47,961 nt of DNA, taken from positions 1 through 47,961 of the forward strand of contig CAZKBD010000005.1 in NCBI GenBank assembly GCA_964550945.1, given 5' to 3'. Numbering within the stretch: the stretch's first letter is position 1; each line of letters begins with the position of its first letter. Below are positions 2,593-47,867 of the stretch, in pieces. This DNA comes from an uncultured Methanosarcinales archaeon (GTDB taxonomy: Archaea; Nanobdellota; Nanobdellia; Woesearchaeales; CAZKBD01). The position numbers and the translations under genes are program-made. Under the pieces are notes generated by a model. That model was not told where the DNA came from. It saw only the letters and a list, made by a program, of their open reading frames with translations, and did not search any database.

Positions 2593-2741
2593 TGTCAAAA
2601 ACCACCCATCAGAGATGCATGGTTTAGCTACTCTACAACATGAAGTGGTTTTTGACACTCAATATTCCACTCATAAAATGTGGTTTTTGAGCACAACAAA
2701 TTCCACTTTATCACTCATCTGAGATGAGTGGAATATTGTTG
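2593..2741 (-). repeat. dispersed ~150-bp palindromic element, copy A
   Basis: Aligns with 27329-27482 and 47711-47867; overlaps the 3' end of the MazF ORF. Confidence 0.85.
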
Positions 2742-3041
2742 TTTTAATAAGCCTACTAACTCATCGAAAACTTTCTTCTTTTTATCTACAGATAAAGAAA
2801 ACAGCACTTTTTCAATCATAGCTCTTGAAACCGTAAAGATATAATTTAGTTTTATAACGCTGTCTTTTACAGCCCCTTCTTTTTTTGCCAGAGGTATTCC
2901 TTTCATCTCTAAATTGCTTGTTATTCCAGCTACAACAACATTATCAAGCTCTTCAAACAAGACTAAAGCAGGCCTTTTTTTGATTTCAAAAGTATCTGTA
3001 AATTGGACTTTGGTTAAAACAACATCTCCGGATTTAGGCAT
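2715..3041 (-). CDS. PemK/MazF-family toxin
   Basis: GDVVL...F.D....KKRPALV...ITS motifs. Confidence 0.85.
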   Translation of the reverse strand: MPKSGDVVLTKVQFTDTFEIKKRPALVLFEELDNVVVAGITSNLEMKGIPLAKKEGAVKDSVIKLNYIFTVSRAMIEKVLFSLSVDKKKKVFDELVGLLKQQYSTHLR

Positions 3042-3089
3042 GCTTAAAAACCTCAGGTTTTTGGCACGCCAAAAATGATTTCATCATTT

Positions 3090-3314
3090 TTAAGCGTTCT
3101 CCCATGCCTCATCTTCTTTGTTGCCCCATAATTCTTTCATCTTGGCCTGTTGAATTTTATGGAGAAACTCATCATATTGATTCCTTTTCTTTATGCTTTT
3201 GAATACATCAACCATTTGCTTAATAAGATCGTTATAGGTCTGCCTGGGATATTCTCTTGCTTCTTTCAAGGAATTAACAAGGGTTTTTTCAATTTGTATT
3301 GTTGTCATGCTCAT
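3090..3314 (-). CDS. antitoxin of the MazF-like toxin
   Basis: 74 aa; TTIQI RHH-like start; C-terminal W.N.EDEAW; directly upstream of the toxin. Confidence 0.7.
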   Translation of the reverse strand: MSMTTIQIEKTLVNSLKEAREYPRQTYNDLIKQMVDVFKSIKKRNQYDEFLHKIQQAKMKELWGNKEDEAWENA

Positions 3315-3481
3315 TATATATCACCTATAGACAGCATATAATAGGTTATATATAAGGTTTTTGGTTATTATTGTAAAAAAAAGGATGATGACTAAAAACA
3401 TATCTTGTAAAAACAATGGCTTAATTGCAAGTTAGTTAATTCTTAGAAAGATTTATATTCGGAAAAATATTCCTTATCAAC

Positions 3482-3859
3482 ATGGATGGGATAAGGATAG
3501 ACGACTCCAAAGTAAATCCAGGTTACCCTGCTGTTGACAGCATAGAAGAAACAATTCGCGTAAGAAGGAAGATTACTTTGGAACAAGCGGAATTTGAAAG
3601 GAAGTTAGCGGAATTAAGAAGTGGATTAGTAAGTGTAAAAGAAATACAACTAAAACAGACTATCCTTTGGAGCGCTGCAGGTATCGTTTTTATTGTATTA
3701 TCATGTCTAGTTTACTATTTATTCAAAATAAATCAGTATATGTTTGGGACTATTGTCACTTTCTTCCTAATAATCTATGTTTTAGCATTTTTTGCACTAC
3801 ATGATGCTAATATTAGAAAGATAATTCTATCGACAAAAGACATTAAAATGGAGAAGTAA
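3482..3859 (+). CDS. hypothetical membrane protein (coiled coil plus 2 TM)
   Basis: ORF with TATA near 3452 and two hydrophobic segments. Confidence 0.6.
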   Translation: MDGIRIDDSKVNPGYPAVDSIEETIRVRRKITLEQAEFERKLAELRSGLVSVKEIQLKQTILWSAAGIVFIVLSCLVYYLFKINQYMFGTIVTFFLIIYVLAFFALHDANIRKIILSTKDIKMEK

Positions 3860-3952
3860 TAAAACAGAGGATAAGGTTGCAGAAAAATTGAACACAACCG
3901 GTTATAAACGTCAAATATGCCATTTTGAGTAAATTATATAGGGTTTTCTAAA

Positions 3953-4057
3953 ATGCAACACGCAAAACTAATCTTACTACTTTTAATCCTCCTAGTTGTA
4001 CCTATAGCCTATGCAGAAGAAGAGGAAGATCAAAAGAATTATTTAATAATAACCTAA
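3953..4057 (+). pseudogene. orphan signal-peptide fragment (34 aa)
   Basis: MQHAKLILLLLILLVVPIAYAEEEEDQKNYLIIT*: Sec signal with AYA cleavage site, then an early stop. Confidence 0.45.
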
Positions 4058-4100
4058 AACAGAAAACAATTTAAACCCAGCTTTGGTTCTTAATGTTGAA

Positions 4101-4709
4101 ATGGAGCTAATCAAAGAAGATATAACAACCAATTTAGCGACAAAATACGGCAATTTTAGGGTTGTTTTGTATAAAGGAGAGGAAGAAGATCATCACATTG
4201 CTTTGATTAATGGTGATGTGAAGGGAAAAAAGAATATCCTTGTTAGAGTTCATTCTGAATGCATAACTGGAGATCTGTTTCATTCAAAAAGGTGTGATTG
4301 CGGTGAGCAGTTAGAGAAAGCAATGGAAAAAATTGGGAAAGAAGGAGGCGTATTAGTCTATCTCAGGCAGGAAGGAAGGGGCATTGGCTTGGTTAAGAAG
4401 CTGGAAGCATATAACCTGCAGGATAAAGGGATGGATACTGTTGAGGCTAATATTAAGCTTGGATTTAAAGCAGATGAAAGGGATTATACAATTGGAGCTC
4501 GGATTCTTGCAGATTTAGGATTAAGCACAATAAGGCTTTTAACTAATAATCCCAAGAAGATAGAAGGCTTGGAAAAGTTTGGTTTGAAAATAGTTGAAAG
4601 GATACCTCTTTTGACAGAAGCTAATGAATTGAATAAAAATTACTTAAAAACAAAGAAAGAAAAATTAGGGCATTTGATGGAAGACAGGGCTTTTGTGAGG
4701 AAATCTTAA
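4101..4709 (+). CDS. ribA: GTP cyclohydrolase II
   Basis: VRVHSECITGD...RCDCGEQL, QEGRGIGL and LTNNP motifs. Confidence 0.95.
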   Translation: MELIKEDITTNLATKYGNFRVVLYKGEEEDHHIALINGDVKGKKNILVRVHSECITGDLFHSKRCDCGEQLEKAMEKIGKEGGVLVYLRQEGRGIGLVKKLEAYNLQDKGMDTVEANIKLGFKADERDYTIGARILADLGLSTIRLLTNNPKKIEGLEKFGLKIVERIPLLTEANELNKNYLKTKKEKLGHLMEDRAFVRKS

Positions 4710-4712
4710 CAA

Positions 4713-5246
4713 TTAATGGCTCAGAATGAAGCTCAATAGCCGATGGCTCAATGTCTCTTTTGGATCTATCCGTTTCATATCAAAATATTTTTCATCCCTA
4801 AGGCGAGAATCTAAATATGCTAGGTTAGGGTTGTTGATGCTTTTTGCAAGAACCGCTAGTATAACCTGATCAAAATCAGTCGCTAGGCTGTGGCCTCTTC
4901 TGGCAAGCTCTTCAAGCATAGGAGCAGCAACAGATTTAGGATCTCTTGCTGATCCATTATCAGATTTACCGGCAGAAGCATTTTCTATACCTAATAGGGT
5001 ATAGCCTAGATTTATGGTTCCCTTGTATCCATGGCAGTGCTGAGCGAGAAATTCTTGCTTCTGGAAATCCCTAATAGCTAGGCAAAAGCCAGCTAATCCA
5101 GGCCTGAAATCCTCTTGTGTTTTGAAATCTTCACTTAGTAAGGTATGCGCCCCATTACCTATCTCGTAAGGATGTTGTTGCACATAAATAAATGCTCTTG
5201 CGCAGATTCCTGCTTGAGATCTTGAATAATATGGGATAATTTTCAT
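4713..5246 (-). CDS. hypothetical protein
   Basis: Start reassigned to MKIIPYY at 5246, with TATA at 5271-5278. Confidence 0.55.
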   Translation of the reverse strand: MKIIPYYSRSQAGICARAFIYVQQHPYEIGNGAHTLLSEDFKTQEDFRPGLAGFCLAIRDFQKQEFLAQHCHGYKGTINLGYTLLGIENASAGKSDNGSARDPKSVAAPMLEELARRGHSLATDFDQVILAVLAKSINNPNLAYLDSRLRDEKYFDMKRIDPKETLSHRLLSFILSH

Positions 5247-5363
5247 TAGGACTGGAAGAATTAAATCCGGTTTATAAATATTTCTTGAGTATCCACTATG
5301 AAGTGATATACGTATACTCAATTTACATAAAATTAATAAACATTTGAGTATTCTTGGTGATTT

Positions 5364-6404
5364 ATGGTATCTGAAATTGCTGTTGTTCCAATTGAAGACA
5401 GGATTCAAGAACTTACAGGCTTGTTGCCTGAGTCAGAAGATGGCCAGCAGCAAGTTAGGCATTCTAATATGTTGGACACGTTTGACTTACTATGTTTTGC
5501 AATTAAGGCAGAAGGAGGATTGCTTATTAAAGATGAACCTCGGTTTAGGTCAGAACTTTTAAGAATATTTTACGGCTACAGTGAGGAGGCTTTTTGTAAC
5601 GTCTTTTTAAGGTATCGCTTACCTTGGGTACAAGAGCCACATTCGTTTAGGAGTGCGACTGTATCATTCTCTCGTGATGATTTTCACAAATCTGGTAAGA
5701 TTATACATGATTTATTGGGGTTTGATGATCAGCACAATTTAATGATTGTCCCTCCGCGTTACAATGGAAGAGCAGCTGAAACATCTTTTTTATACCAGGC
5801 GTCAAACGCCTTCAATATATTTGTTATGACAGCATTTCCTAATATAAGGATGCAAGCTGTAGCTTCTACTCCTGAAACATATGGGTTATATTCTGATGAT
5901 ATCTTAAATGGAAATTTGGTGACATACGGTCCAGCAGACTGCAACATTGCCCGCGCTCATATATTAAACTCCGAGCTCCAAAGAGCCAGTGAAGGACAAC
6001 TTGGAATTGAAGGATTACTTACAGTGGAACAGTCTATGCCTATAGTTGAATGGTTCAAATCTGAGCAGAATAGGGCAAAAGCAGCTGATATTCCACGTTA
6101 TGTGGTTTTGTTAGATGGTCAACGCCAGTCTGTTTTTGACTTATATGGGGGGGCTTTTTTAACGCCTGACAATTTTTCTTCAGAAGCGGCTTCTGAACCT
6201 GTTTTAGGGGTTTTTGCCCGTAATGTTATAGACGGAAAAGTTTATTGCTCTTTTGAAGGTACAAGCCAAAATGGTACTGCAGCTGCTATTTTAGCATATT
6301 GTCAGCCTGACATTATCTATTGTACAAGGCAGGCTCACCAAGGAGACAATCGTTCTGCAGTTGTTGAATACCGCGAAAATAAATTAAGGGTTGCTCAATT
6401 CTAA
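5364..6404 (+). CDS. hypothetical protein
   Basis: 346-aa ORF with GGTGA SD; no family recognised. Confidence 0.65.
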   Translation: MVSEIAVVPIEDRIQELTGLLPESEDGQQQVRHSNMLDTFDLLCFAIKAEGGLLIKDEPRFRSELLRIFYGYSEEAFCNVFLRYRLPWVQEPHSFRSATVSFSRDDFHKSGKIIHDLLGFDDQHNLMIVPPRYNGRAAETSFLYQASNAFNIFVMTAFPNIRMQAVASTPETYGLYSDDILNGNLVTYGPADCNIARAHILNSELQRASEGQLGIEGLLTVEQSMPIVEWFKSEQNRAKAADIPRYVVLLDGQRQSVFDLYGGAFLTPDNFSSEAASEPVLGVFARNVIDGKVYCSFEGTSQNGTAAAILAYCQPDIIYCTRQAHQGDNRSAVVEYRENKLRVAQF

Positions 6405-6406
6405 TT

Positions 6407-6703
6407 TTACATATATCCCAATTTTTTCAGATATTTTTTAAGGTCATTATATTCCTTGTCTCTATCTAGGATACAAATGACTTTTATGAAAGGCTTATCA
6501 ACAAGGTATATAACTCTTTTTTCTTTGTGTTCATCTTCAAATCTTATCCTGAATAAGAATAGCTTATAACCATGAATCCTTTTATAGCGATAAGGGTTTA
6601 TTTTAGCTAATCTTAATTTTTCTTCAATCAGTTTTGCAGCCTCATCGCTGATTTCATCTATTTGCTGCAGAAAGAAATGAGATGGCTTTATTACATATTC
6701 CAT
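6407..6703 (-). CDS. RelE/ParE-like toxin
   Basis: 98 aa, basic; NPYRYK, FRIRF, RVIY motifs; follows an RHH gene. Confidence 0.7.
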   Translation of the reverse strand: MEYVIKPSHFFLQQIDEISDEAAKLIEEKLRLAKINPYRYKRIHGYKLFLFRIRFEDEHKEKRVIYLVDKPFIKVICILDRDKEYNDLKKYLKKLGYM

Positions 6704-6705
6704 CT

Positions 6706-6951
6706 TTATCTTCTTCTAAGCTTCTTGAACAATTCTTCCTCTGTTCCGTAGAGGTTTTTCTTTTCACTTACTTCAACTAATTTTTTAACCAATACGAGCT
6801 CTTCTTTGGATATTTCTGGTTCATCAAATAATCGTTCTCGAATAGTCTCTTTAATAAACTCCTGTATATTGCCATAACCGTGCTCTTCAGAGTAAGCTTT
6901 AGCTGAAGCAACTATATTTTCAGGCAACCTTATGTTAATTTGCATGTTCAT
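6706..6951 (-). CDS. ribbon-helix-helix antitoxin
   Basis: QINIRLPE...GYGNIQEFIKETIRE; tandem GATACCAAT repeats over the start region. Confidence 0.75.
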   Translation of the reverse strand: MNMQINIRLPENIVASAKAYSEEHGYGNIQEFIKETIRERLFDEPEISKEELVLVKKLVEVSEKKNLYGTEEELFKKLRRR

Positions 6952-6990
6952 GATACCAATAGATACCAATTGGTATATAAATCTTTTGTT

Positions 6991-7626
6991 TTAAAACCTC
7001 AAGATCTCCATTGCATTAGCAATGTCTTTCTCGTCTATTACAAACAATGTGTCAGTCCAGCAGCTCATTGTCTCTACAATATTAATGCCGTGCTCTCCAA
7101 ACAATGAATAGGCATAAGGAACCACTCCGGCTGTTGTTTCAATCTCTTTTGGAGATTTTAAAGTGATCTCTACCAGATTAGTGTTTTCTTTTATTATCTT
7201 GGTTTTGAAAAGCCTTCTTATCTCTGCGAGAAAGTCTTCGCTTGTGACAATTGTTATTGCATTAGCCCCTTCAATGATGTGGAATACATCATCTTTTTTC
7301 TTAATCTCTTTTTCCAAAGCAAGAAGATTATCTAAAAATATGTTTTTTTCAACAACAACCGCAATTATTTTATTCTTAATCTCAACCTTGCTTTGTTTTA
7401 ATATCTCCAATATCTTCTTCTCATTAGTCTCTTCTGATCTTACCTTCCTGTAATATCTCCTGCAAGCGATTAAGATAGCATCAAAATTCTTCTTTAAGTC
7501 GATATTAAGGTCTTTTGTTATCTGCCTTGTAAGGGAAGAATAATTTATAAGGCCTTTTTTCAGGCAATCCTTTATGCTTGGATGCTCTGACACATATTTT
7601 TCAGTAATTTTTGTGATGTTTGCCAT
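6991..7626 (-). CDS. ACT-domain protein with N-terminal helical/HTH-like domain
   Basis: GLINYSSL...A..R N-terminus; C-terminal ACT (GV......L...GINIVE..S). Confidence 0.8.
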   Translation of the reverse strand: MANITKITEKYVSEHPSIKDCLKKGLINYSSLTRQITKDLNIDLKKNFDAILIACRRYYRKVRSEETNEKKILEILKQSKVEIKNKIIAVVVEKNIFLDNLLALEKEIKKKDDVFHIIEGANAITIVTSEDFLAEIRRLFKTKIIKENTNLVEITLKSPKEIETTAGVVPYAYSLFGEHGINIVETMSCWTDTLFVIDEKDIANAMEILRF

Positions 7627-7627
7627 T

Positions 7628-8551
7628 TTAGCACCTGCTTAGTATTTTTTTCATTTTTTTCATATTATAATCCAGCCAGTTTTTATGCTTCATCTCATAA
7701 GAAAACACAATAGAGCTTATGAGCAGGATTATCTCGTAAAGCTTTTTTCTTTGTTCGTATTCTTTTGAAATGTTTCCAAACTTTTTATATCCTTTGAAAA
7801 AATAATGTTTTAGCTCTGGAAGCTTGTCGAACATCCATTGCTCAGATTTGAATAAGTCCAGCTCATTGTGGCCTGCAATAGCCCATTCAAAATCTATTAT
7901 CCCTCCTATTTTGTTATTGTCGGCTATTATATGCGAGAAATGGTAATCCTTGTGCAGCAGGCATGGCTTATCCTTGATCTCAACCAAACTTTCAAGAATG
8001 TCAATCCTTCTTTTGCATTCATAAACATCACTTTTAGCGATTATATTGGCCTTCCTTATCTTTTTTAATTTTTCATTGACATCATAATCCAAAAACTCAG
8101 GCCATGTTTTGAATGCTGGGCTGATTTTATCACCCAATATCCAGCCAAATCTTTTGAATTTAATGGAATGGATCTTGGCGAGGATTTCGCCTGCTTTTAT
8201 GAAAAGTTTTTTGTCTTTGCTTTTTTCATACTCTTTGTCAACTGAATCCCCTTCAATCTTTGAAAGGACTAGATAACTGTAGGGCATTATCTTTTTTGAC
8301 TTATCAATCAAATATATTTTTGGGACAGGAACATCTGTTTTTTTTGCGATTAAATTGTATAGGAATTCTTCCTTGTCAGCTTTCCACGGATCCTTTGGGA
8401 ATATCCTCAACACCAAATTCTTGTCAGGATTCCTTATCTTGATATCAAATGTCCTGTTAACCAGGCCTTTTTCAAACTTCTTTATGCTTTCAATTTTAGA
8501 ATTAGGGAAAGCTCTAAATATAGCTTTTTCTACTCCTCTTTTAGATATCAT
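7628..8551 (-). CDS. aminoglycoside phosphotransferase/choline kinase family protein
   Basis: GLVN, VLRI, VPVP, LLHKDYH..HI and GIIDFE motifs. Confidence 0.85.
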   Translation of the reverse strand: MISKRGVEKAIFRAFPNSKIESIKKFEKGLVNRTFDIKIRNPDKNLVLRIFPKDPWKADKEEFLYNLIAKKTDVPVPKIYLIDKSKKIMPYSYLVLSKIEGDSVDKEYEKSKDKKLFIKAGEILAKIHSIKFKRFGWILGDKISPAFKTWPEFLDYDVNEKLKKIRKANIIAKSDVYECKRRIDILESLVEIKDKPCLLHKDYHFSHIIADNNKIGGIIDFEWAIAGHNELDLFKSEQWMFDKLPELKHYFFKGYKKFGNISKEYEQRKKLYEIILLISSIVFSYEMKHKNWLDYNMKKMKKILSRC

Positions 8552-8572
8552 CTATTCTCCCCAACGATATTA

Positions 8573-8671
8573 TTATTCTAATTCAAAACCCGATCTTCTA
8601 ATCAGTTCTGAGGTCTTGTGATCAATAATCACTAGGTTAATATCAATGAACTCTGCTAATGTTTTTTGCAT
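8573..8671 (-). CDS. putative small protein (32 aa)
   Basis: MQKTLAEFIDINLVIIDHKTSELIRRSGFELE*; lies just upstream of the APH gene; below ORF-track cutoff. Confidence 0.35.
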   Translation of the reverse strand: MQKTLAEFIDINLVIIDHKTSELIRRSGFELE

Positions 8672-8904
8672 CTTAATTAAAAAATGAGGTCATAGTGTTA
8701 TGACCCCCCTAAAATTTATTAAGCATATACATCCGCTTTTCTGTTTGGTACTCCTTGCTTGGCGTATTGCTCAAAACTAACCTTGTCCTAACTTATATTT
8801 AAATGTTTCGTTTTGGACATTTTTGACGCATATCGGAAACTAAAGTTTAAATGAAACATATTGATCTGATCGTAGACAAAATCAATCAGAATAGGACTTG
8901 ACGC

Positions 8905-9630
8905 CTATTCCTTCTGATATTCTTTAATCGCTTCGTTCAGATCAGATTTGTCGAATAAAGGCCATAATTTATTTGAGAAATAAACTTTAGAATTAACAGA
9001 ATCCCACAGCAACAATCCAGATGGGGATGTGTTTTTGCCGTTTATTATAACCAAGTCAGGCGGCAAAAAAGAGGAAGAATATATACTGTCTTTGATAAGC
9101 TCTTTATTTATTGATTCAGGGTCTATTTTTCCTACCCTAATCTGCATTGAGATTAGTTTGCATGCATCTACAATCTCCTCCTGGCCGTCATAATTTATGC
9201 AGAGATTCATGAAAAATTCATCATAATCTTTTGTTGCATCAATCGCCTTTTTTATCACTTCAACCACTCTCCCAGGCATCCCATACCATTTGCCTAAGAC
9301 AGATATCTTGACTTTATTTTTATTTATGGCCTCATTATCTACCAGGCCATTGAAGAATTCCTCTATCGGATCAATTATCTGGGAGAAAGCCTCAACATCA
9401 GCCTTTATCTCTTCTGGCAAAACAAAAAATGTGGTTATAGGGATCCTAAGGTCAATCTGGTAATCCAATGTTTCAAGCAGGACATCAAAAGATTTTTTAT
9501 AGCTCTCTGATAATGGAATCTTCTCCTTTTTTGCATAGCTGGCAATGCCGTCCATTGTCAGGGCAATATGCGAAGTAAGCTTTAATTCCTTCTTTTCCTT
9601 CTTCAGAAGTTCTTTGAATTTCTCGAGCAT
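8905..9630 (-). CDS. cis-prenyltransferase (UppS-like), catalytically degenerate
   Basis: HIAL.MDG, NLCINYDGQEEIVDA and PDL.I...SG.LLW present; N/R residues of DGNxR and RTSGExR absent. Confidence 0.8.
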   Translation of the reverse strand: MLEKFKELLKKEKKELKLTSHIALTMDGIASYAKKEKIPLSESYKKSFDVLLETLDYQIDLRIPITTFFVLPEEIKADVEAFSQIIDPIEEFFNGLVDNEAINKNKVKISVLGKWYGMPGRVVEVIKKAIDATKDYDEFFMNLCINYDGQEEIVDACKLISMQIRVGKIDPESINKELIKDSIYSSSFLPPDLVIINGKNTSPSGLLLWDSVNSKVYFSNKLWPLFDKSDLNEAIKEYQKE

Positions 9631-9675
9631 TTCTTTGAATAGTAGCCTAAATTTGTTTATAAACTTATCTTAGAA

Positions 9676-10038
9676 CTACTTCTCAGAAGCTACGTTCAGA
9701 AGCACTTTTATTGCTATAACTGCAGCAGCTGGCCCTACAAAGCTGATGAAATTCTGGTACATGTTCAACAGAACAAACCCTAAAGCAGGAATGTCCTTGA
9801 AAACATCAGAGATAACATAAGCAAGGACTATCAAAGCAACGGCCGCAAGCAGGAAACGGTCTATCTCCACATCAGTAATGTTCAAAAGGCCAACCAGAGT
9901 TCCGAGAACAGCTAAGATAACCTTAACTGCCGCGTATTCTGATACTGGGCTTCCAGAAATTAAGATAGCTATAATGGTGCCTACTATGAATGCCCAAACA
10001 CCCAGCTGCTCTGTAAATAACCTCTTTTTTTTCAGCAT
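9676..10038 (-). CDS. hypothetical 4-TM membrane protein
   Basis: Hydrophobic; G.WAF..G and GL.VGLLNIT..E motifs. Confidence 0.7.
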   Translation of the reverse strand: MLKKKRLFTEQLGVWAFIVGTIIAILISGSPVSEYAAVKVILAVLGTLVGLLNITDVEIDRFLLAAVALIVLAYVISDVFKDIPALGFVLLNMYQNFISFVGPAAAVIAIKVLLNVASEK

Positions 10039-10132
10039 CTAGCAATTTCTAGTTTAGCTGGTATTTATATCTTTCTAAAACAGCAAATAAAACCAATATT
10101 TTTATAAACCACCTTCTTACTGATGTATAACC

Positions 10133-11017: not shown

Positions 11018-11163
11018 TCAAATTGCCCCTTAATCTTGCACTCGTCAGAATTTATGATCTTGTCCATCTCTTTCTCAAATTCCTTGTTTGGCCTTGTAAG
11101 TATCTTATACACGTAGTACAAAGCTGCAATGAAGATCAGGCTATAGATGAATTTTGTATCCAT
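11014..11163 (-). CDS. small single-TM protein (49 aa)
   Basis: MDTKFIYSLIFIAALYYVYKILTRPNKEFEKEMDKIINSDECKIKGQFD*; TTTATATA about 25 nt upstream; missed by the ORF track. Confidence 0.6.
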   Translation of the reverse strand: MDTKFIYSLIFIAALYYVYKILTRPNKEFEKEMDKIINSDECKIKGQFD

Positions 11164-11196
11164 GACAGAACAAGATACAGAGGTTATATAAAAATC

Positions 11197-12619: not shown

Positions 12620-12687
12620 TTTTTTTCTCTGCTATAAAAAATTACGGATAGGCTAAGCGATATATCTTTTTTATCTTTTTGCATAGC

Positions 12688-18389: not shown

Positions 18390-18830
18390 ATGCAATTGCA
18401 GATGCAGGATGCAAAGCTTGGCAAAAATTGTATTTTTTGCAGAATCATCAAGGGAGAGATTCCATGCACCAAGGTTTATGAAGATGATAATCTGATTTCT
18501 TTTCTTGACATTGCTCCTGCAAATAAAGGCCATTGCCTTGTTATGCCCAAGAATCATTACGAAACTTTATTGGACGCACCTAACCTTGATTTGGCTTTAA
18601 TAATAAAAAAATCAAAGGAGATTGCAAGGGCAATGAGCTCTGCATTAGGAAACCAGGGCTTTAATCTTTTGGTCAATAATAAAAAAGAGGCTGGCCAGGT
18701 TGTGTCTCATGTTCATGTTCACCTTGTTCCTAGATTTGCTGGTGATGGGATATCATTCAATTGGAAGCCTAAGAAATATATGAATGATGAGATAGATGAA
18801 TTTGCAGATAAAATAAAAAGTTTTTTATAG
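18390..18830 (+). CDS. HIT-family hydrolase (intact HVHVH triad)
   Basis: CIFC and AGQVVSHVHVHLVPR. Confidence 0.93.
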   Translation: MQLQMQDAKLGKNCIFCRIIKGEIPCTKVYEDDNLISFLDIAPANKGHCLVMPKNHYETLLDAPNLDLALIIKKSKEIARAMSSALGNQGFNLLVNNKKEAGQVVSHVHVHLVPRFAGDGISFNWKPKKYMNDEIDEFADKIKSFL

Positions 18831-27270: not shown

Positions 27271-27308
27271 GGAAAGGTTTATATATCAGTTATACTTTCT
27301 GTATAACT
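27271..27308 (+). promoter_or_regulatory. TA promoter (BRE-TATA) with palindromic operator
   Basis: GGAAAGGTTTATATA followed by AGTTATAC-tttct-GTATAACT. Confidence 0.6.
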
Positions 27309-27328
27309 AATTATACTTAATGTTTAAA

Positions 27329-27482
27329 CAACAGAATTCCGCCGGTCTGTGATTGATGGTTAAGTGGAATTCTGTGTGCTCAAAAACCGCCGTGATGTGG
27401 CGGAATTCTGAGCATCAAAAACCACTTCATGTTGAATAGTAAATAAAACATGCCGCCCATCTCTGTTGGGTGGTTTTTGACA
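27329..27482 (+). repeat. dispersed ~155-bp palindromic element, copy B
   Basis: Reverse-complement homolog of copies A and C. Confidence 0.9.
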
Positions 27483-27491: not shown

Positions 27492-27716
27492 ATGATAGCA
27501 GCTAAAATAAAAAAATGGGGCAATTCATATGGTATATTGATACCTAAAAATGAATTGCAAAAGATGAATCTAGGAGAGAATCAAGAGGTAATAGTAGATA
27601 TAAGCAAAAAAGAAAATCCTTTGAAAGAGATGTTTGGGTTTGCTAAGAATGTTAGACCAAAAAAGTCAGCGGAACAGATAATCAAGGGAGCCAGAAAGGA
27701 TCTTGGAGTAGATTAA
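27492..27716 (+). CDS. AbrB/MazE-type antitoxin (VapB)
   Basis: KIKKWGNSYGILIPK. Confidence 0.9.
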   Translation: MIAAKIKKWGNSYGILIPKNELQKMNLGENQEVIVDISKKENPLKEMFGFAKNVRPKKSAEQIIKGARKDLGVD

Positions 27717-27717
27717 A

Positions 27718-28077
27718 TTGTACTGCCTTGATAGCTATGCCTTGTGGGAAATTCAATTTGGAAACGAAAAATTTTTAAAATTCCTTACTGAAAAATTTGT
27801 TATAACCGATTGGACCTTGGCTGAGTTTTATAAAACAATGCTAAAGGAATACGACAAAAAAACCGCTGATTATTGGTTAAGCAGATTTAAATCATATTGC
27901 GAAAAAGTGGAAGTTGATGCTTTAATAAGGGCAGTTGTATTCCAACATACAAATAAAAAAGGAATTTCACTATTTGATGCAGTAGGGTATATCTTTTCAT
28001 TGGAAAATGATCTCAAGTTTGTAACCGGGGACAAGGAGTTCCAACATAGAGAAGGAGTTGAATTTATCAAAAAATAA
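27718..28077 (+). CDS. PIN-domain toxin (VapC-like)
   Basis: LDSYA, LAE, SLFDA and VTGD.EF motifs. Confidence 0.88.
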   Translation: MYCLDSYALWEIQFGNEKFLKFLTEKFVITDWTLAEFYKTMLKEYDKKTADYWLSRFKSYCEKVEVDALIRAVVFQHTNKKGISLFDAVGYIFSLENDLKFVTGDKEFQHREGVEFIKK

Positions 28078-38529: not shown

Positions 38530-38546
38530 ATTAGCAGGAGGTTAAA

Positions 38547-40148: not shown

Positions 40149-40163
40149 TTGGAGGCATTGAAA

Positions 40164-41207: not shown

Positions 41208-41228
41208 AATAAATTGGAGGACGGGAAA

Positions 41229-42254
41229 ATGACAAAAGCTTTATTCATTCCATCAGCATTCGCTGATGAAGCTGTTAGAGATAGAAGAATCGCTGATCTT
41301 GAGCAGCAATTGGATGCAGTTGCTGGCCAGGGATTATTATATTATACTGCAAGAGCATTTAATTTTAGCGGAATACCCGGAGAAAACGTAAATGTGACTG
41401 GTTTAAATCCTGATCAATTGGATGGGATTGTAAAACTCAACAAAAAATATGGCATGAGAGTTGCAACTCTAGGAACGCCTATTGGAAAAGCTGGCTTAGT
41501 TGAAGGACGACCAGCAAAAGCAGATTACAAAAGCCCAGAGCAAGTAAGAGTACAGCTTGAAGGTGCATTTAGGGCTGGTGATAAATTAGATTGCAGGCTT
41601 ATAAGGGGATTTTCTTTTTATCCTCCTGATGGGGCTAAAGAGGCTAAAGAGGGAGAATTTTATTCCCTAGCTTTTAAGAGATTATGGGAAGAAATAGTTG
41701 TACCTTGCAAAAATCATGGTTTTCTTTTTGGAATCGAGCCTGAGCCTGGATTAACTGCAGCTGATGGAGCCACTTTGAATAAGCTAGTAAGCGAGTTACC
41801 CAGCAAAAATGTTGTCGGCATTTATGATGGGGCTAATCTCCATGTTGCAGGATTAGATGGAGTGCATGAGTATTTTGCAATGAGGGGTGTTCTTGGCTGG
41901 TTCCATATTAAAGATTATAATCAGCCTTGTCCAGGCGGCAGGACAGTAGATGAGGAAGCGCTTAAGCATTTCTGCCCTGCTGATAGAGGATTAGTGGGCC
42001 ATCAGGCAATAATGGATGATTTTGCTTCAAGGCAAGTTGAAACTTATGAGAAACTGAGGGCTTTTGGTATTCCAGGCATTCCAGCAGATGTTGAAGGCCA
42101 TATTGATGGCGGTGGATTATTTGGAGGATTCTCAAATCCAGTTGGCTTTGGAATGGCAGTAAGGGGTTTGTTAAACGTGCTGGACAGAGCAGGCATCAAA
42201 TACGAGTTAAGAGATCACGACCAGATGGTTTCGTTCCAGCAGTATTGCCAATGA
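41229..42254 (+). CDS. sugar phosphate isomerase/epimerase (xylose-isomerase-like TIM barrel)
   Basis: SAFADE, GTPIGK, IRGFSFY, D.AN, HIKD and E.H...GG.FGGFS. Confidence 0.8.
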   Translation: MTKALFIPSAFADEAVRDRRIADLEQQLDAVAGQGLLYYTARAFNFSGIPGENVNVTGLNPDQLDGIVKLNKKYGMRVATLGTPIGKAGLVEGRPAKADYKSPEQVRVQLEGAFRAGDKLDCRLIRGFSFYPPDGAKEAKEGEFYSLAFKRLWEEIVVPCKNHGFLFGIEPEPGLTAADGATLNKLVSELPSKNVVGIYDGANLHVAGLDGVHEYFAMRGVLGWFHIKDYNQPCPGGRTVDEEALKHFCPADRGLVGHQAIMDDFASRQVETYEKLRAFGIPGIPADVEGHIDGGGLFGGFSNPVGFGMAVRGLLNVLDRAGIKYELRDHDQMVSFQQYCQ

Positions 42255-42390
42255 TTATTTTTTCCATCACCTTTATAAGCTGAACAATATTTTCAACCGA
42301 TGAAAAGAGGTTCTGGTATTTATAATAAATGAGATGATGGAATAGGAAGAGGAATAGTGGTTTCATAATACTGAACAAGGAGGATAAAAA

Positions 42391-43659
42391 ATGTCAGCAT
42401 CTTTATACAGAAGAATAAAAGCGTTAGTTGAATTGAACCATCAAAAGTATACTCCAAAAACGGCAATTCAATATCTAAAGGGAAATACTGGCCAAGAAGT
42501 TGATTTTCTTAGCGCAGGGGTATTGGTTCTTGATGTTGGGCAGTCAGTTCAAGTCCCAGGGGTCGAGATTAAGGAAGGGGAGCTTAGCGTCCCAGCAGAC
42601 GAGATTATTAAAAACAGGCCAACATTAACAGTTGAGCAGCTGGCTTCTTCAGAGTTTGGAGGCTGTGGAAATGTAGTATTGCCAGCAGCAGCTTTAGGCA
42701 TAAGAACAGGAGTTATGGGATTTACTGGTCAGGATGTAGAGGGCAATTATTTTCGTAAGAGTATGGAACAGTATGGAGTCACTACTTCAGGGATGATTGT
42801 AGACGCCATGCACAGAAGCGATGTTTCTATAAAAATTCAGGTTGAAGACCGCACTAAAAGAGAGCCATTGGTATTTTGCGAAGATGCTGGAAAATACTTT
42901 CATTTTGGGAGTGCTCAGGCAAAAGAAAGATTAATCGCACTCAATCCAAAAAGTGTTCAAATAAGCTATTCTGGATTATTTGAGAATGGAGCAGATTGTG
43001 GCGGGGGGGATTTGCTTGCAAATGACATTAGATGGATTAAAAAAACTCTAGATTCATTAGTGATGGTTGATACCCATACATATGCTGGAGATCAAAAAAG
43101 GTATGACTGCTTAAGGCCATCTTTAGAAGTTGCGGATATGTTTGTCTGCTCTGATGATGAAGTGGAGCTGATGATTCCACAATACAAACTCTCATCAGGA
43201 AATACTAGAGCAGAGAAGAGGCAAGCATTTTTTAATTTTTTAAAAGATAACTATTGCAAAGAAAATGAAGCAAGATTTTACGCAGTAACATCTCCAGAAG
43301 AGGCAGTTGTCTTATACTACAAGCCAAATGGAGAATCAGTGCAGGTTACAGTTGAGAATTGGTTCACAACAAATAACGGAGAGATATTTACAACAACAGG
43401 CGCAGGAGACTCATGGAGAGCAGGATTAAACGCTTATATATTAAATCATGAGCAGGAGTTTAAGTCAGGAAGATTAAATGTTGAAGAAGCAGTGCAGTTT
43501 GCAAATCTTACTGCTAGATTATATATTTCTGGCTCAAGGACAACTGCGTTTAAAAGCTATCAATATACTGATCTATTAAGGTTAGCTTCTGGACAAAAAC
43601 CAACAGAAGATTTGAGGCCATTGACAGCTGTGTACAAAGCATTGGACAGAGCGGCTTAG
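42391..43659 (+). CDS. PfkB-family carbohydrate kinase
   Basis: GGCGNV, G.D..G, TTGAGDSWRAG and FAN motifs. Confidence 0.88.
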   Translation: MSASLYRRIKALVELNHQKYTPKTAIQYLKGNTGQEVDFLSAGVLVLDVGQSVQVPGVEIKEGELSVPADEIIKNRPTLTVEQLASSEFGGCGNVVLPAAALGIRTGVMGFTGQDVEGNYFRKSMEQYGVTTSGMIVDAMHRSDVSIKIQVEDRTKREPLVFCEDAGKYFHFGSAQAKERLIALNPKSVQISYSGLFENGADCGGGDLLANDIRWIKKTLDSLVMVDTHTYAGDQKRYDCLRPSLEVADMFVCSDDEVELMIPQYKLSSGNTRAEKRQAFFNFLKDNYCKENEARFYAVTSPEEAVVLYYKPNGESVQVTVENWFTTNNGEIFTTTGAGDSWRAGLNAYILNHEQEFKSGRLNVEEAVQFANLTARLYISGSRTTAFKSYQYTDLLRLASGQKPTEDLRPLTAVYKALDRAA

Positions 43660-43669
43660 CCAATTTAAC

Positions 43670-44599
43670 ATGTATACTCAACCAACTCTTGAGGCAGCAG
43701 TATCTATAGGAATCAGTGAAAGAAAATTAAGGCATCATGGATTTTTGTTTGATGAAGTTAAATGGAGACAACATCTTGATTCTTTAGAGAACAGGTTTCC
43801 TGGCGAGAAATCACTTATAGATGAAGCGAGAGCTGCAGATTATAACCGAGTAGTTCCGCTTTATCTTGACCGCTTAGTTGAAAGGGATTACAGCAAGCTG
43901 AAAAAAGCAGGAATATTGGCAGCAGGCGCAGCAGGCCTGTATGCGCTGTCTGCATTAATGCCAGAAACAACAGAAGCTGCAAAACAATTTTATTCCCATT
44001 ATTTGTCAGAGAATGGGACATTGTCAACCGTTGTTACTAATTCATTGACTATGCTGGCATTCTATGGCGTTGGGGATGGGTTAGCTCAATGGATTGAGGG
44101 AAGGGGATTTGATGCAAGAAGATTTTCAAGAACAGTCAAGCTTGCTGCAGTCTATGGTGCAGAATTTACAGGAGTCTATTCATTAATAGGCAAAGCCACT
44201 TCTGCAATAGGCAAAGTATATGAGCTAGGCAGCCTGGCAACTGCTTTTGTCATGAGCGTAATGGATGTTCCAGGCTATGGGGTGAATATATTCAATCCAA
44301 GGCATGTTTACTTAATGACAAAACAAGGAAAGATTAATCTGTTGGATTATATCAGGATTGATAAGTTTTATGCAAACCTCTTCAAAGATAAATCATTCAG
44401 AAGAAAATGGTGGAATGTTACTAAAGTAGCGCCTGCATGGCTGGCTTACCAAACTTGGAATAGATCTACTAATCCGGAATCAGATTGGGTATTCTGGGTT
44501 GCTTTAGCTGCAGTGCCTTTTGCAGTTTACCTCTCTCTAGTCTCAAATGAAAAAAAAGAATTAAGACAATTGCAGGATGTGATGGCGAAGTTAACCTAA
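43670..44599 (+). CDS. membrane protein, Mpv17/PMP22-like
   Basis: T......GVGD.LAQ..E...FD.RR; several TM segments. Confidence 0.5.
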   Translation: MYTQPTLEAAVSIGISERKLRHHGFLFDEVKWRQHLDSLENRFPGEKSLIDEARAADYNRVVPLYLDRLVERDYSKLKKAGILAAGAAGLYALSALMPETTEAAKQFYSHYLSENGTLSTVVTNSLTMLAFYGVGDGLAQWIEGRGFDARRFSRTVKLAAVYGAEFTGVYSLIGKATSAIGKVYELGSLATAFVMSVMDVPGYGVNIFNPRHVYLMTKQGKINLLDYIRIDKFYANLFKDKSFRRKWWNVTKVAPAWLAYQTWNRSTNPESDWVFWVALAAVPFAVYLSLVSNEKKELRQLQDVMAKLT

Positions 44600-44633
44600 A
44601 CCTTTATAAATAACTGATTATTATTTCTGCTAA

Positions 44634-44978
44634 ATGAGTAAAAAGAAGGAAGAGCAGGCAAGGCAGGAAGAACTTCAAGAGCAGATTTCTAGAATCAAAT
44701 TGCCAAGAGGAAGGCAGACATTTGGGGTTCTTGAGTTGAGAGTCGGGGGCTCAAGGATGAAAGTAAGATGCCTTGATGGGAAAAATAGGATTTGCAGGAT
44801 ACCAGGAAGATTAAAAAGAAAGTTATGGGTTAGGGAAGGAGATATTATTATTGTAGAGCCATGGGAGTACTCAGGAGACGAGAAAGGGGATATATTATAT
44901 AAATATACTAAAACTCAGGTTAATTTCCTAAAAAACAGGGGCCATCTAAAACAGATAGAAGAGTTTGAAGAGTTCTGA
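44634..44978 (+). CDS. eif1a: translation initiation factor aIF-1A
   Basis: C.DGK.R.CRIPGRLKRKLWVREGD.IIV.PW. Confidence 0.96.
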   Translation: MSKKKEEQARQEELQEQISRIKLPRGRQTFGVLELRVGGSRMKVRCLDGKNRICRIPGRLKRKLWVREGDIIIVEPWEYSGDEKGDILYKYTKTQVNFLKNRGHLKQIEEFEEF

Positions 44979-45071
44979 ATATACTAATCTATTTAATAAC
45001 ACCAAGCAATAACCAATATCACTACTCCAGAATAGAAATCCTTAAATATTAGCACTGTTTAACTTTTTAAT

Positions 45072-45596
45072 ATGGGGGGTAGTAGAACAGGTTCACTTAT
45101 TGTAATGGATATAATCCTGCTAATTGCTTTTATTGGCTTGATTATGGTTATTTTTGACCTTAAGAGGTTTTTCTTTATCGGCGAATTGATTTTATTTGGA
45201 GTTATCCTTCTCTTCACATTTATTGCTATGGTTGCTGCTTACCTTGAAGCTAGGTTTGGGTGGGTATTGCTCTCAATTATCTCAGCGGTTATATTGCTGG
45301 ATGTCATCTTTATTTATTTCAAATCTGTGATGTCAAGCAGCATGTTCTTCCTGCTGGTGATATTAGGCGTGGTTGGATTTATAATCTCAGTAGTGAATAT
45401 GGGCAGGGAAGAGGCTGAGCCTGAGATTGAAGAAGTGTTTGAGCCAGGAAAGTTTATTGGCAGCACTACTGGAAGAAGCTATCACGCGCCAAAGTGTGAC
45501 TGGGCAAACAATATCAAGAAGGAAAATCAAGTATGGTTTGATAGCGAAGAAGAAGCAAAGAAAAAAGGGTATAAGGCTCATTCATGCCTTAAATGA
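45072..45596 (+). CDS. 4-TM protein with C-terminal Ada-like metal-binding domain
   Basis: GS...YH...C.W...I...N...F...EEA...GY..H.C. Confidence 0.7.
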   Translation: MGGSRTGSLIVMDIILLIAFIGLIMVIFDLKRFFFIGELILFGVILLFTFIAMVAAYLEARFGWVLLSIISAVILLDVIFIYFKSVMSSSMFFLLVILGVVGFIISVVNMGREEAEPEIEEVFEPGKFIGSTTGRSYHAPKCDWANNIKKENQVWFDSEEEAKKKGYKAHSCLK

Positions 45597-46046
45597 TTCT
45601 GTTCTCCAGAGATAGATTATCATCAATATTGCTCCTATTGAGACAGCGCTGTCTGCTACATTAAAAGCAGGCCATATCCTGAAATCGAGAAAATCAATTA
45701 CATAACCCAGCCTGATCCTATCAATAAGATTCCCAATTGCGCCGCCTAAGATGAGGCCTACTGAATAATGGACTATTGCCTTGTTCTTTAGCTTGTCGTA
45801 ATAAAAAAGCACTGCGCCAATTATCATCAGAGCAACAAATATGAGCAATGTATTTTTTCCTTTTAAAATGCCAAAGCCTGCGCCTGTGTTATGGATGTAA
45901 GTCAGATGGAATATATTGCTGATTATTGGAACGCTTTTGCCAAGATATCTTACCACTAAAAATTTTGAGAACTGGTCAAGAACAATGATCAGGCAAGCAA
46001 GGCCAAATATCCTTAATGCCTTACCAGCTTCTTCTTCTTTCTTCAT
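45582..46046 (-). CDS. lspA: lipoprotein signal peptidase II
   Basis: DQFSK, NTGAGFG, GAIGNLIDR, VIDF and FNVAD motifs. Confidence 0.93.
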   Translation of the reverse strand: MKKEEEAGKALRIFGLACLIIVLDQFSKFLVVRYLGKSVPIISNIFHLTYIHNTGAGFGILKGKNTLLIFVALMIIGAVLFYYDKLKNKAIVHYSVGLILGGAIGNLIDRIRLGYVIDFLDFRIWPAFNVADSAVSIGAILMIIYLWRTESFKA

Positions 46047-46443
46047 GCTCTCCACTGGCTATCCTTTCCAGATGAGCTAATCTCTGGTTTATGCTTTCTA
46101 TTCCGGCTCTTAAAGCATCCAATTTGCTTGACAGAACTTCAATGTTTTTGGATACAATATAATCATTAGTTGACTGCTGCGGCTGTTGTAATGGCTGCAT
46201 TGGCTGATGAAATTGCTGCATCTGCTGCAATGGCTGCTGCTGCATGAAGCTTGGCTGCTCAAAGCTTGGCCTTGAAGGCTCTTCAAAAGAGCCTGGAAAT
46301 CCTGGGCCAATATCAGTAGCTCCAAGTCCTAAATCACGCTCTCTGCCTAAACCAGCATCCATGCCAAAAGGCTTAGGGCCCTCAGGTATCATAAAATCGT
46401 CTTCTTTCTTTTTCCAGAACATCACTTTATCAAAAAAAGCCAC
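46021..46443 (-). CDS. hypothetical protein, Pro/Gln-rich with C-terminal coiled coil
   Basis: GTG start with GGAG; low-complexity middle region. Confidence 0.7.
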   Translation of the reverse strand: MAFFDKVMFWKKKEDDFMIPEGPKPFGMDAGLGRERDLGLGATDIGPGFPGSFEEPSRPSFEQPSFMQQQPLQQMQQFHQPMQPLQQPQQSTNDYIVSKNIEVLSSKLDALRAGIESINQRLAHLERIASGEHEERRRSW

Positions 46444-46560
46444 TCCAGCACCTCTTTTATAATATATTTTAATTAGAAATATATAAAGTTTTGGTTTTGC
46501 AAAGATTTATAAATTCAGGATTAACTAGGGCAAGGGTAAAACCTAATGGAGTGATTACTG

Positions 46561-47502
46561 ATGCCTAGTAAATTTTTAACGATTTTTGGACTATTATTGA
46601 TGATGTGCATAGTTGTAAATGCGCAAGAAAACCCCAGTTTTGATAATGAGATTATTAATGAAACTCCTGGTCTTAACGAAACACAGAATCAGACAGGGGT
46701 AGTTCCATCTGGACTCATTGGTTTTCAGCTAGCAGGCATAGAGCCAAAAGAAGCAAATCCAGGAGATGTTGTAGTTACAATTAATGTTGTTAATACTGGC
46801 ACAGTTGCTTTAAATAATCTTATGCCTGTTGTTGTTGGCAGAGGATTCTCAGCATACAATATTGTTCCAATAGCTTTACTAAACCCTAATCAGACAGCTC
46901 CTGCTTATATAGAAGGCAAATTCCGAGAAAAAGGAGAAATATTGCTTGCAATCAAGATAAGTGACAAGGTTTTCTATGAGAAGGTTTCAATAAAAGCTGA
47001 ACCATATTTTGTAAATGAAACAAAGCTAAAGGAGATGGAAGAAGCAAGACAGGATGAATTGATCGATCTTTCAGCTAAGCTTGATGACTTAAAAGCAAAA
47101 TACATATCTCTAGAAACCGACTTACAGAATAAAGAGGGCGATTATGATGTTTCAAGAGTTAAGCTAGATGAACTAAAGGGTTATTTGAGAACTTCAGAAT
47201 CCAGCTTGCTTAGCGGAGATGCTGAAAAGACCAAGATAAACATTGCCTTGGCGAATAATGAATATGTTGACCAGAAGCGCCTTATTGACGAATCTAAGAA
47301 AAAGCCTTTTATGCAAAAAATAAAAGATAATATCATTGTTATATCGTCAATTGCGGGTGCAATAATCACTTTATTTGCCTTATATGAGCTTCTCAAGAAG
47401 AAGAAAGAAGGGCTTTACCAGAAGATCAAGGAAATAAAGATCAATAAAGATACAACGATTGTTGTCCAGAAGAAAAAGAAAGGCAAGGGAGATAAAAAAT
47501 AG
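46561..47502 (+). CDS. secreted/membrane-anchored protein (Ig-like domain, coiled coil, TM)
   Basis: Signal peptide; V.NTG motif; C-terminal TM and Lys-rich tail. Confidence 0.7.
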   Translation: MPSKFLTIFGLLLMMCIVVNAQENPSFDNEIINETPGLNETQNQTGVVPSGLIGFQLAGIEPKEANPGDVVVTINVVNTGTVALNNLMPVVVGRGFSAYNIVPIALLNPNQTAPAYIEGKFREKGEILLAIKISDKVFYEKVSIKAEPYFVNETKLKEMEEARQDELIDLSAKLDDLKAKYISLETDLQNKEGDYDVSRVKLDELKGYLRTSESSLLSGDAEKTKINIALANNEYVDQKRLIDESKKKPFMQKIKDNIIVISSIAGAIITLFALYELLKKKKEGLYQKIKEIKINKDTTIVVQKKKKGKGDKK

Positions 47503-47524
47503 GATTTCTTGAAAGAAAATTGAA

Positions 47525-47685
47525 TGCGGAGGAGAGGATTCGAACCCCTGTAGGCACTAAGCCAATAGGTGTCTTGCAATCACAGCTGGAATCAGCTCAT
47601 CACACCTGTGAACGACCTAAGCTTGGACTGATTCCACCAAATCATTGGAATCCTCTATCCCGTTTGGCCGCTCCGGCACCTCCGC
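47525..47685 (-). tRNA. tRNA-Leu(TAG) with two introns (30/31 47623-47654, 37/38 47571-47615)
   Basis: Acceptor GCGGAGG/CCTCCGC+A; spliced arm ATAGG-CT-TAG-GA-CCTAT; long variable arm. Confidence 0.85.
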
Positions 47686-47710
47686 ATATAAGCTGCAAAA
47701 TATTGGAATG

Positions 47711-47867
47711 TGTCAAAAACCACCAATCAAAAATGGGTGGCATGATTGTTACGGTCGCAACAACTGTAAGTGGTTTTTGATGCTCAGAATTCCACCAGTA
47801 ATGTGGCGGTTTTTGAGCACACAGAATTCCACTTAACCATCCATCTCAGATTGGTGGAATTCTGTTG
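47711..47867 (-). repeat. dispersed ~157-bp palindromic element, copy C
   Basis: Homolog of copies A and B; lies between a BRE-TATA (47868-47882) and tRNA-Leu. Confidence 0.9.

What the first reader, a model, noticed from the sequence alone, without database searches (positions are those of the whole stretch)
2593..47867. Three copies of a ~150-bp structured non-coding element with compensatory changes, each inserted after TTTAAA/TTAAAA
Seen: copies at 2593-2741, 27329-27482 and 47711-47867 are built from GTGGTTTTTGA and GAATTCCAC modules with variable spacers. Two ~12-nt modules covary across the copies: CAATATTCCACT/AGTGGAATATTG (A), CAGAATTCCGCC/GGCGGAATTCTG (B), CAGAATTCCACC/GGTGGAATTCTG (C). 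All begin CAACA after TTTAAA or TTAAAA, end TTTTTGACA, lack terminal inverted repeats or a clear target duplication, and share orientation with local transcription. Known: IS200/IS605 (HUH) elements insert 3' of AT-rich motifs without duplication using subterminal hairpins, and have non-autonomous derivatives. Inference: an undescribed non-autonomous palindromic element or structured RNA family. No transposase is present in this window.
Basis: partly seen in the sequence, partly recalled or inferred. Interest (0 to 1): 0.82.

Follow-up and report, generated by a model that had tools for sequence, protein, structure and literature searches.

The report
Transposase-less IS200 derivatives with self-pairing centres
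The three repeats are small gene-less jumping elements built from the two ends of an archaeal single-strand-DNA transposon (IS200 type); they still pick their insertion site by the known four-base DNA guide rule, and unusually carry in their middle sequences that pair with their own ends.

Summary
Confirmed. The copies (A 2594-2742 minus, B 27328-27481 plus, C 47712-47868 minus; ends ±1) are 3 of 8 of one subfamily in this genome, inside a family of about 50 loci found in 64 of 401 genomes of the order. They are non-autonomous IS200 derivatives (PATE type). Their left end matches autonomous tnpA elements L279/L280. The upstream tetranucleotide follows the element's own guide by the IS608 pairing rule: AATT/TTAA in B and C, TATT/TAAA in A; 22 of 31 subfamily copies versus 12.2 shuffled. 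Family members have precise empty sites without duplication; none was found for these three copies. Ends of a probable cognate tnpA element sit at six contig ends here, its middle unassembled. Unusual part: a central inverted copy of the right-end/left-end junction, doubled in these copies, absent from autonomous left ends, and the only part kept in 49-57 bp minis that often nest in other copies. Its role is untested. Co-orientation with genes is not general. The scan noted this family before on other DNA.

The parts
27328..27481 (+). Copy B, whole element (154 nt; ends ±1)
27324..27327 (+). Copy B target tetranucleotide TTAA (flanking DNA), predicted by guide AATT
27328..27359 (+). Copy B left end: 7-nt leader, guide AATT (27335-27338), subterminal hairpin (27339-27359); homologous to the left end of autonomous elements L279/L280
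27366..27394 (+). Copy B centre 1: anti-left-end plus anti-right-end module (inverted, imperfect copy of the end-to-end junction)
27402..27429 (+).
27449..27481 (+). Copy B right end: guide CATG (27449-27452), hairpin (27453-27473), 4-nt linker, cleavage motif TGAC (27478-27481)
47712..47868 (-). Copy C, whole element (157 nt); left end 47837-47868 with guide AATT 47858-47861; centres 47802-47830 and 47766-47793; right end 47712-47744 with guide CATG 47741-47744
47869..47872 (-). Copy C target TTAA; with the element removed it lies about 25 nt upstream of the tRNA gene, where a TATA box would be (inference)
2594..2742 (-). Copy A, whole element (149 nt); guide TATT 2732-2735; centres 2676-2704 and 2641-2668; right-end hairpin has lost 5 nt of its 5' arm, so probably not mobile
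2743..2746 (-). Copy A target TAAA, predicted by guide TATT; the site is three codons before the inferred original end of a PemK/MazF ORF (2715-3041 minus)

Best explanation
The copies are non-autonomous IS200-type elements (PATEs): a left end and a right end of a Woesearchaeota-type tnpA-only insertion sequence with the gene deleted, moved in trans by a Y1 HUH transposase. Inferred cycle, by the established IS608 mechanism: TnpA binds the two subterminal hairpins on single-stranded DNA; the four bases 5' of each hairpin pair with the cleavage motif (left guide with the flanking TTAA or TAAA, right guide CATG with the terminal TGAC); the top strand is excised as a circle and inserted 3' of a new matching tetranucleotide, with no duplication. 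Shown here: end homology, guide-target covariation, precise empty sites for family members, ends of a probable cognate tnpA element in the genome. Inferred: the enzyme, the circle, the strand. Added feature: the middle holds inverted copies of the right-end/left-end junction (two in these copies, one in most of the family). My preferred reading (about 45%) is that this centre is a built-in splint that holds the two ends together and checks the base after the right end; the main alternative is a lock that buries guides and damps transposition.
For: Left ends of B and C match autonomous tnpA elements L279/L280 over target, leader, guide and hairpin; their protein has the HVH and YIQKQ motifs and matches NF033573 below its cut-off, not the RAYT model. 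Autonomous elements of this clade obey the rule at 40 of 46 left ends (shuffled 14.0, max 23) and 43 of 53 right ends. Subfamily: all three pairs met in 22 of 31 copies, shuffled 12.2, 0 of 10000; third target base A in 30 of 31. Whole family: class S last pair 37 of 38 versus 19.1; class L alignment columns 22 and 25 covary with target positions -4 and -2 (0.84 and 1.16 bits, z 11 and 17). Motif only on the 5' side. Empty sites in congeners G161/G073: three exact (two, one). Three left ends (C31, C46, C144) and three right ends with a tnpA-like C-terminal tail (C1, C15, C115) of the same clade at contig ends of G000. For the centre: terminal dinucleotides covary with centre dinucleotides; the base after the right end complements the centre in 169 of 169 but is A 7, T 5, G 2 in autonomous TGAC ends; 39 autonomous left ends have no such complement (3-7 nt).
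Against: No empty allele was found for A, B or C (one search tested B only). No full tnpA of the cognate clade is assembled in G000; joining the six contig ends into one element is inference. 13 of 37 element-bearing genomes had no Y1 match, among them G009 and G300 with many copies (no matched control run). The first guide pair is loose: 21 of 38 in class S, 23 of 31 in the subfamily. Internal right guides other than CATG/CACG still precede TGAC in 19 of 56 parsed ends. Predicted lowest-energy folds bury the guide and disrupt the left hairpin. No orientation bias relative to genes. The 49-57 bp minis have no guide-plus-hairpin ends, so canonical TnpA action does not explain them. Copies are related, so shuffle counts overstate independence.
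Confidence: 0.87

Rival explanations
1. Same origin, but the central modules are by-products of template switching or inverted self-insertion, kept perfect by palindrome correction, and either neutral or acting as a lock that lowers transposition.
For: Lowest-energy folds pair the guide and the end sequences with the centre. At least three unrelated centre sequences occur on ends of the same clade (G000 C4/C148; G073 C5), as a recurring mutational process would give. Palindrome correction can produce two-sided changes without selection (established knowledge, recalled).
Against: The two bulged centre bases are kept in 164 and 163 of 169 elements; the centre tracks the flanking base after the right end in 169 of 169; minis made of the centre and its partners alone occur at many unrelated sites.
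Confidence: 0.35
2. A REP/REPIN family (CGTC/TGTC-tagged) spread by a domesticated RAYT.
For: Most family members begin TGTC and are two inverted hairpins; Di Nocera 2013 notes CGTC tags changed to TGTC; some copies sit in frame in ORFs.
Against: These three copies lack the tag at the left end; no RAYT over the cut-off in 5 of 5 genomes searched; no Y1 gene flanked by the repeats; ends match IS200 elements and follow the four-base guide rule.
Confidence: 0.06
3. A structured non-coding RNA or cis-regulatory RNA conserved for function.
For: Strong folding and covariation; B lies before a toxin-antitoxin pair and C before a tRNA.
Against: Unrelated contexts, no orientation bias, patchy presence within genera, empty sites, covariation with flanking DNA outside the element, no Rfam match.
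Confidence: 0.04
4. A classical MITE moved by a DDE transposase through terminal inverted repeats.
For: The commonest family form starts TGTCA and ends TGACA; G000 has several other collapsed multi-copy elements at contig ends.
Against: The window copies have no terminal repeats; no target duplication at exact empty sites or nested insertions; target motif on one side only.
Confidence: 0.02

Closest known systems
PATEs (palindrome-associated transposable elements) of Haloquadratum walsbyi, Dyall-Smith et al. 2011, PMC3119063 (passages read; supplements not readable)
   Same: Transposase-free, no terminal inverted repeats, near-terminal palindromes shared with IS200/IS605 elements, no target duplication, short 5' targeting motif, strain-specific insertions.
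   Different: Derived from tnpA-only IS200 elements of DPANN-type archaea; carry central inverted copies of the end-to-end junction, which the passages read do not describe; guide-target pairing is testable here across many natural variants.
IS608 / ISDra2 single-strand transposition (PMC3201880 passages; PMC5934647 passages and Discussion)
   Same: Guide tetranucleotide 5' of each subterminal hairpin, crossed pairing of the first two guide bases, unpaired A at the third target position, insertion 3' of the motif, a preferred base after the cut.
   Different: No tnpA or tnpB; leader 7 nt and right linker 4 nt; the base after the right end follows an internal centre sequence, not the left guide; the cut seems to shift by one base with right guide CATT.
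SMR-A small mobile repeats of H. walsbyi (PMC3119063 passages)
   Same: The 49-57 bp minis of this family have inverted ends, no duplication and often sit inside the hairpins or arms of longer copies and IS200 ends, as SMR-A do in PATEs; mobilisation of SMR-A is called enigmatic.
   Different: SMR-A are about 110 bp and said to be unrelated to known transposons; here the minis share their frame with the IS200-derived long forms. Sequences could not be compared.
REP/REPIN and CGTC-tagged repeats (PMC3733652 first part and passages; PMC8266576 passages)
   Same: Short intergenic palindromes in inverted pairs, guide-like tetranucleotide, occasional in-frame insertion in genes.
   Different: No RAYT; distinct left and right ends; four-base target rule instead of a CT/CA dinucleotide.

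Membership tests
Non-autonomous IS200/IS605 derivative (PATE) | No transposase gene, no terminal inverted repeats | tested here: met
   149-157 nt, ends dissimilar
Non-autonomous IS200/IS605 derivative (PATE) | Subterminal hairpins homologous to those of an autonomous tnpA element | tested here: met
   Left end matches L279/L280; right end matches L213, L279, L291-L293 type; hairpins 84% and 92% paired with two-sided changes. Copy A right hairpin broken.
Non-autonomous IS200/IS605 derivative (PATE) | Insertion 3' of a tetranucleotide that pairs with the left guide | tested here: met
   22 of 31 versus 12.2 shuffled; family-wide
Non-autonomous IS200/IS605 derivative (PATE) | No target duplication; precise empty sites | tested here: met
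   Three exact empty sites for family members in G161/G073; not shown for A, B, C
Non-autonomous IS200/IS605 derivative (PATE) | Cognate TnpA available in trans | tested here: inconclusive
   No assembled gene of the clade in G000; three left and three right ends with a tnpA-like tail at contig ends; two other-clade tnpA genes present
Non-autonomous IS200/IS605 derivative (PATE) | TnpA-dependent single-stranded circle intermediate | not testable with these tools
   needs biochemistry or junction PCR
Non-autonomous IS200/IS605 derivative (PATE) | Lagging-strand-template orientation bias | tested here: inconclusive
   No bias against gene orientation; replication origin not mapped in these fragmented genomes
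REP/REPIN | RAYT gene, flanked by the repeats, in the genome | tested here: not met
REP/REPIN | GTAG or CGTC/TGTC tag at the hairpin foot | tested here: not met
   window copies start ACAAC; other subfamilies start TGTC
MITE (DDE) | Terminal inverted repeats and target duplication | tested here: not met
SMR-A (for the minis only) | Inverted ends, no duplication, insertion inside PATE/IS605 palindromes | tested here: inconclusive
   17 of 44 minis sit inside family sequences by eye, five of them probably one event; SMR-A sequences not readable
Rfam RNA family | Match at gathering score | tested here: not met
   only two tRNAs in the window

The most novel reading that the evidence does not exclude
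The central anti-junction is a functional DNA splint: it folds the element into abutting hairpins (a rod once circular) that line up both cut sites and add a base of target checking, and it is sufficient for mobility. The 49-57 bp minis would then be hyperparasites that lack TnpA-binding ends and use transposase bound at other elements' hairpins, which would give a mechanism for the unexplained SMR-A class and a way to make TnpA move cargo without canonical ends.
Probability: 0.3. Interest if true: 0.75.

Novelty: new variant of a known kind. Interest (0 to 1): 0.52.

Why it matters
It ties a widespread repeat of DPANN-type archaea to a specific IS200 transposase clade and gives more than a hundred natural insertions in which guide and target change together, a pattern otherwise shown mainly by engineering IS608. 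The self-pairing centre and its stand-alone minis offer a direct test of how transposase-free repeats that target IS200/IS605 hairpins (SMR-A, called enigmatic in 2011) move. Practically, these elements mimic structured RNAs and add spurious peptide stretches to genes, so annotators should recognise them.

Tried and rejected
GIY-YIG nuclease as partner (idea recalled, not in PMC3733652: 0 hits): 1 of 5 genomes, none in G000. TnpB: none in G000, G001, G009, G027; two weak hits in G023. RAYT: none over cut-off. The two assembled tnpA genes of G000 (C153, C146) belong to another clade with other ends. Clustering 793 ORFs near elements gave no recurring mobile gene; a home-made Y1 profile found none near them. 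Viral contigs: 0 exact matches to the centre motif. Sequencing runs: 5 DNA holders, no RNA holder listed; contigs laid on copy B showed no joint across it, which proves nothing. Automatic hairpin-based guide calling was noisy (15 of 95 at the expected offset) and was replaced by fixed-position and alignment tests. Empty-site search in genus g101 failed for divergence. Of 18 G073 loci tested against about 1.1 of 1.4 Mb of G161, 3 were not parsed, 1 gave an exact empty site, 1 an element-free site with diverged flanks, 2 only distant or edge alignments, the rest no spanning alignment; one G161 element had an element-free G073 site with changed flank bases. All exact sites have A on both sides, so the one-base end ambiguity stays. 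The automatic 'nested' flag for minis (25 of 44) was too loose; I counted 17 by eye. Literature: searches found no description of this family or of internal anti-junction modules; the library lacks most subscription papers, and the Haloquadratum supplements (tables S8, S9) that list PATE and SMR-A ends could not be read.
Full report
Observation. The three copies and their covarying modules are real. Each folds as single-stranded DNA far better than shuffles (z -6.64, -5.49, -7.25) and none matches Rfam. The window is contig C5 of a 1.97-Mb archaeal genome in 177 contigs. BLAST and motif scans show many more copies. Eight copies share the doubled-centre form of the window; a ninth with the same left end has one centre (C40). 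The commoner single-centre motif marks 54 loci, with 5 hits in a base-shuffled genome, so about 50 are real.

Family and spread. The centre motif occurs in 64 of 401 genomes of the same order, patchily within genera, at 1 to 41 exact matches; the doubled-centre form in 19 of 401. Both tallies include a few genomes marked unpublished; no other claim rests on those. No exact match in viral contigs. In 169 parsed elements of 49-255 bp the frame is two abutting hairpins with one bulged base each; the terminal dinucleotides covary with the centre. A motif stands only on the 5' side: A at -3 in 154 and a purine at -1 in 161 of 169, nothing comparable on the 3' side.

Link to IS200. Y1 transposase genes were found in 24 of 37 element-bearing genomes (no matched control). 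Reading their flanks showed that the variable loops of the repeats are the end hairpins of these elements. One clade, queried with L195, has right-end hairpins like those of the window copies; it was found in 41 of 401 genomes at E 1e-8, about half of them close, and at 74 metagenome loci. Elements L279, L280 and L281 are about 680 bp, encode only a 154-aa TnpA with HVH and YIQKQ motifs, and have the left end TTAA, 7-nt leader, guide AATT, hairpin, as in copies B and C; the protein matches the IS200/IS605 model below its cut-off and not the RAYT model. Their right end is guide CATG, hairpin, four bases, TGAC, the layout of B and C.

Guide rule. In IS608 the four bases 5' of each hairpin select the cleavage motif: the first guide base pairs with the second motif base, the second with the first, the third motif base is an unpaired A (PMC3201880 passages; PMC5934647 passages). 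The fourth-with-fourth pair follows from the listed guides and motifs and from my recall; I did not see it stated. Autonomous elements of the clade obey the rule at 40 of 46 left ends (shuffled mean 14.0, maximum 23) and 43 of 53 right ends. In the window subfamily all three pairs hold in 22 of 31 copies, shuffled 12.2, 0 of 10000: AATT/TTAA 14, TATT/TAAA 5, CATT/TGAA 2, AATA/TTAT 1; nine copies miss at least one pair, mostly the first (unpublished loci left out). Family-wide, 38 short-leader elements meet the last pair 37 times (shuffled 19.1), the second 28 (17.7), the first 21 (15.7); in 37 long-leader elements, whose hairpins come from another tnpA clade, two alignment columns covary with target positions -4 and -2 at z 11 and 17. 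Left and right end classes mostly match (31 and 24 matched, 10 mixed among those classed). Related copies share guides, so the shuffles overstate independence, but each target is a separate site.

Mobility. Congeners G161 and G073 give three exact empty sites with neither duplication nor loss (two, one) and two element-free sites with changed flanks; most tested loci had no alignable counterpart. No empty allele was seen for copy B in four runs; A and C were not tested. With the elements removed in silico, A leaves a PemK/MazF ORF ending three codons later, and C leaves an AT-rich box about 25 nt before a tRNA gene. Orientation relative to genes is not biased.

Enzyme in this genome. The two assembled tnpA genes are of another clade, and the cognate clade gave no hit. 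But three contigs end in an identical left end of that clade with target AGAA and guide CTTT, and three begin with an identical right end with guide CATA and motif TGAT behind the codons for Phe-Cys-Asp-stop or its last part, the C-terminus of tnpA in L213. I infer a three-copy autonomous element whose middle collapsed in assembly.

The centre. Each centre is an anti-left-end followed by an anti-right-end, that is an imperfect inverted copy of the junction that excision would form. The left arm pairs with the second centre in 277 of 279 positions over 31 copies, with changes on both sides at several positions. Autonomous left ends have no such complement (3-7 nt in 39), though some right ends have an outer stem. 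The base after the right end complements the third base of the centre tetranucleotide in 169 of 169 elements and is A in 29 of 29 subfamily copies, whereas it varies after autonomous TGAC ends; ISDra2 checks this base by pairing (PMC5934647 Discussion). Among elements with left guide TTTT, those with right guide CATG have five A's upstream in 7 of 9 and those with CATT four in 9 of 11, which suggests the right guide shifts the cut by a base while the junction stays the same; this is inference. Unrelated centre sequences occur on ends of the same clade, so the design arose more than once. Forty-four minis of 49-57 bp keep only the frame; 17 lie inside longer copies by eye, five of these probably one event. 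Against a helping role: predicted lowest-energy folds bury the guide and break the left hairpin.

Comparison. The long forms meet the tested features of PATEs (PMC3119063 passages). The minis behave like SMR-A, which that paper describes as targeting near-terminal palindromes with unknown mobilisation; its supplements, which list the sequences, could not be read. REP/RAYT, MITE and RNA readings fail their tests. Searches found no description of this family or of such centres; of the papers listed there I saw only the listing except PMC3733652 (first eighth and passages), PMC3201880, PMC8266576, PMC3119063, PMC6006769 (passages) and PMC5934647 (passages and Discussion). Earlier scan notes record the family on other DNA as REP-like or PATE-like; the lines shown do not name a transposase clade or the guide test.

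Verdict. A new variant of a known kind: IS200-derived PATEs with a self-pairing centre. Confidence in the class 0.87; the function of the centre is open. Interest 0.52.

Noticed in passing
window 47524-47686 (minus): tRNA gene with a long (about 75-nt) intron, missed by Rfam and by default ARAGORN; found with the intron option, anticodon call uncertain. Copy C sits 25 nt upstream of it.
   Followed up: partly
window 47908-47961: The window ends in a sequence shared with four other contig ends (C32, C93, C141, C142): the end of another multi-copy element collapsed in assembly; several more such clusters exist.
   Followed up: no
L001 (G000:C153) and L002 (G000:C146): Both assembled tnpA genes lie directly upstream of what look like diversity-generating retroelement loci (target gene, template repeat, start of a reverse transcriptase; read by eye). 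Their reading frames run to or past the element's right end.
   Followed up: no
window 27295-27327 and 27498-28077: Copy B lies between a palindromic operator-like stretch and the start of a MazE-like/PIN toxin-antitoxin pair.
   Followed up: no
G000:C48 near 5133-5243; G000:C20 near 18645-18735; L088; L171: Family members inserted in frame in protein-coding genes without stops (111 bp in a 1808-aa ORF; 54-bp minis); 54 bp is the commonest mini length, 19 of 44.
   Followed up: partly
G000:C4 about 53070-53200, C148, C58, C96; G073:C5 (L354 about 1130-1300): Other IS200-derived short elements with their own unrelated central anti-end sequences.
   Followed up: partly
G000:C56, C80, C122: Subfamily with right guide AATC and end TTAG, with a matching change in the centre.
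   Followed up: partly
L277, L278: A family member inserted directly after the right end of an autonomous tnpA element.
   Followed up: no
L187 (G249:C66), L030, L184, L192: tnpA genes or IS200 ends interrupted by small double-hairpin inserts.
   Followed up: no
L279 and L280: Both share four bases after the right-end TGAC although the sites differ; chance or a longer end, unresolved.
   Followed up: no
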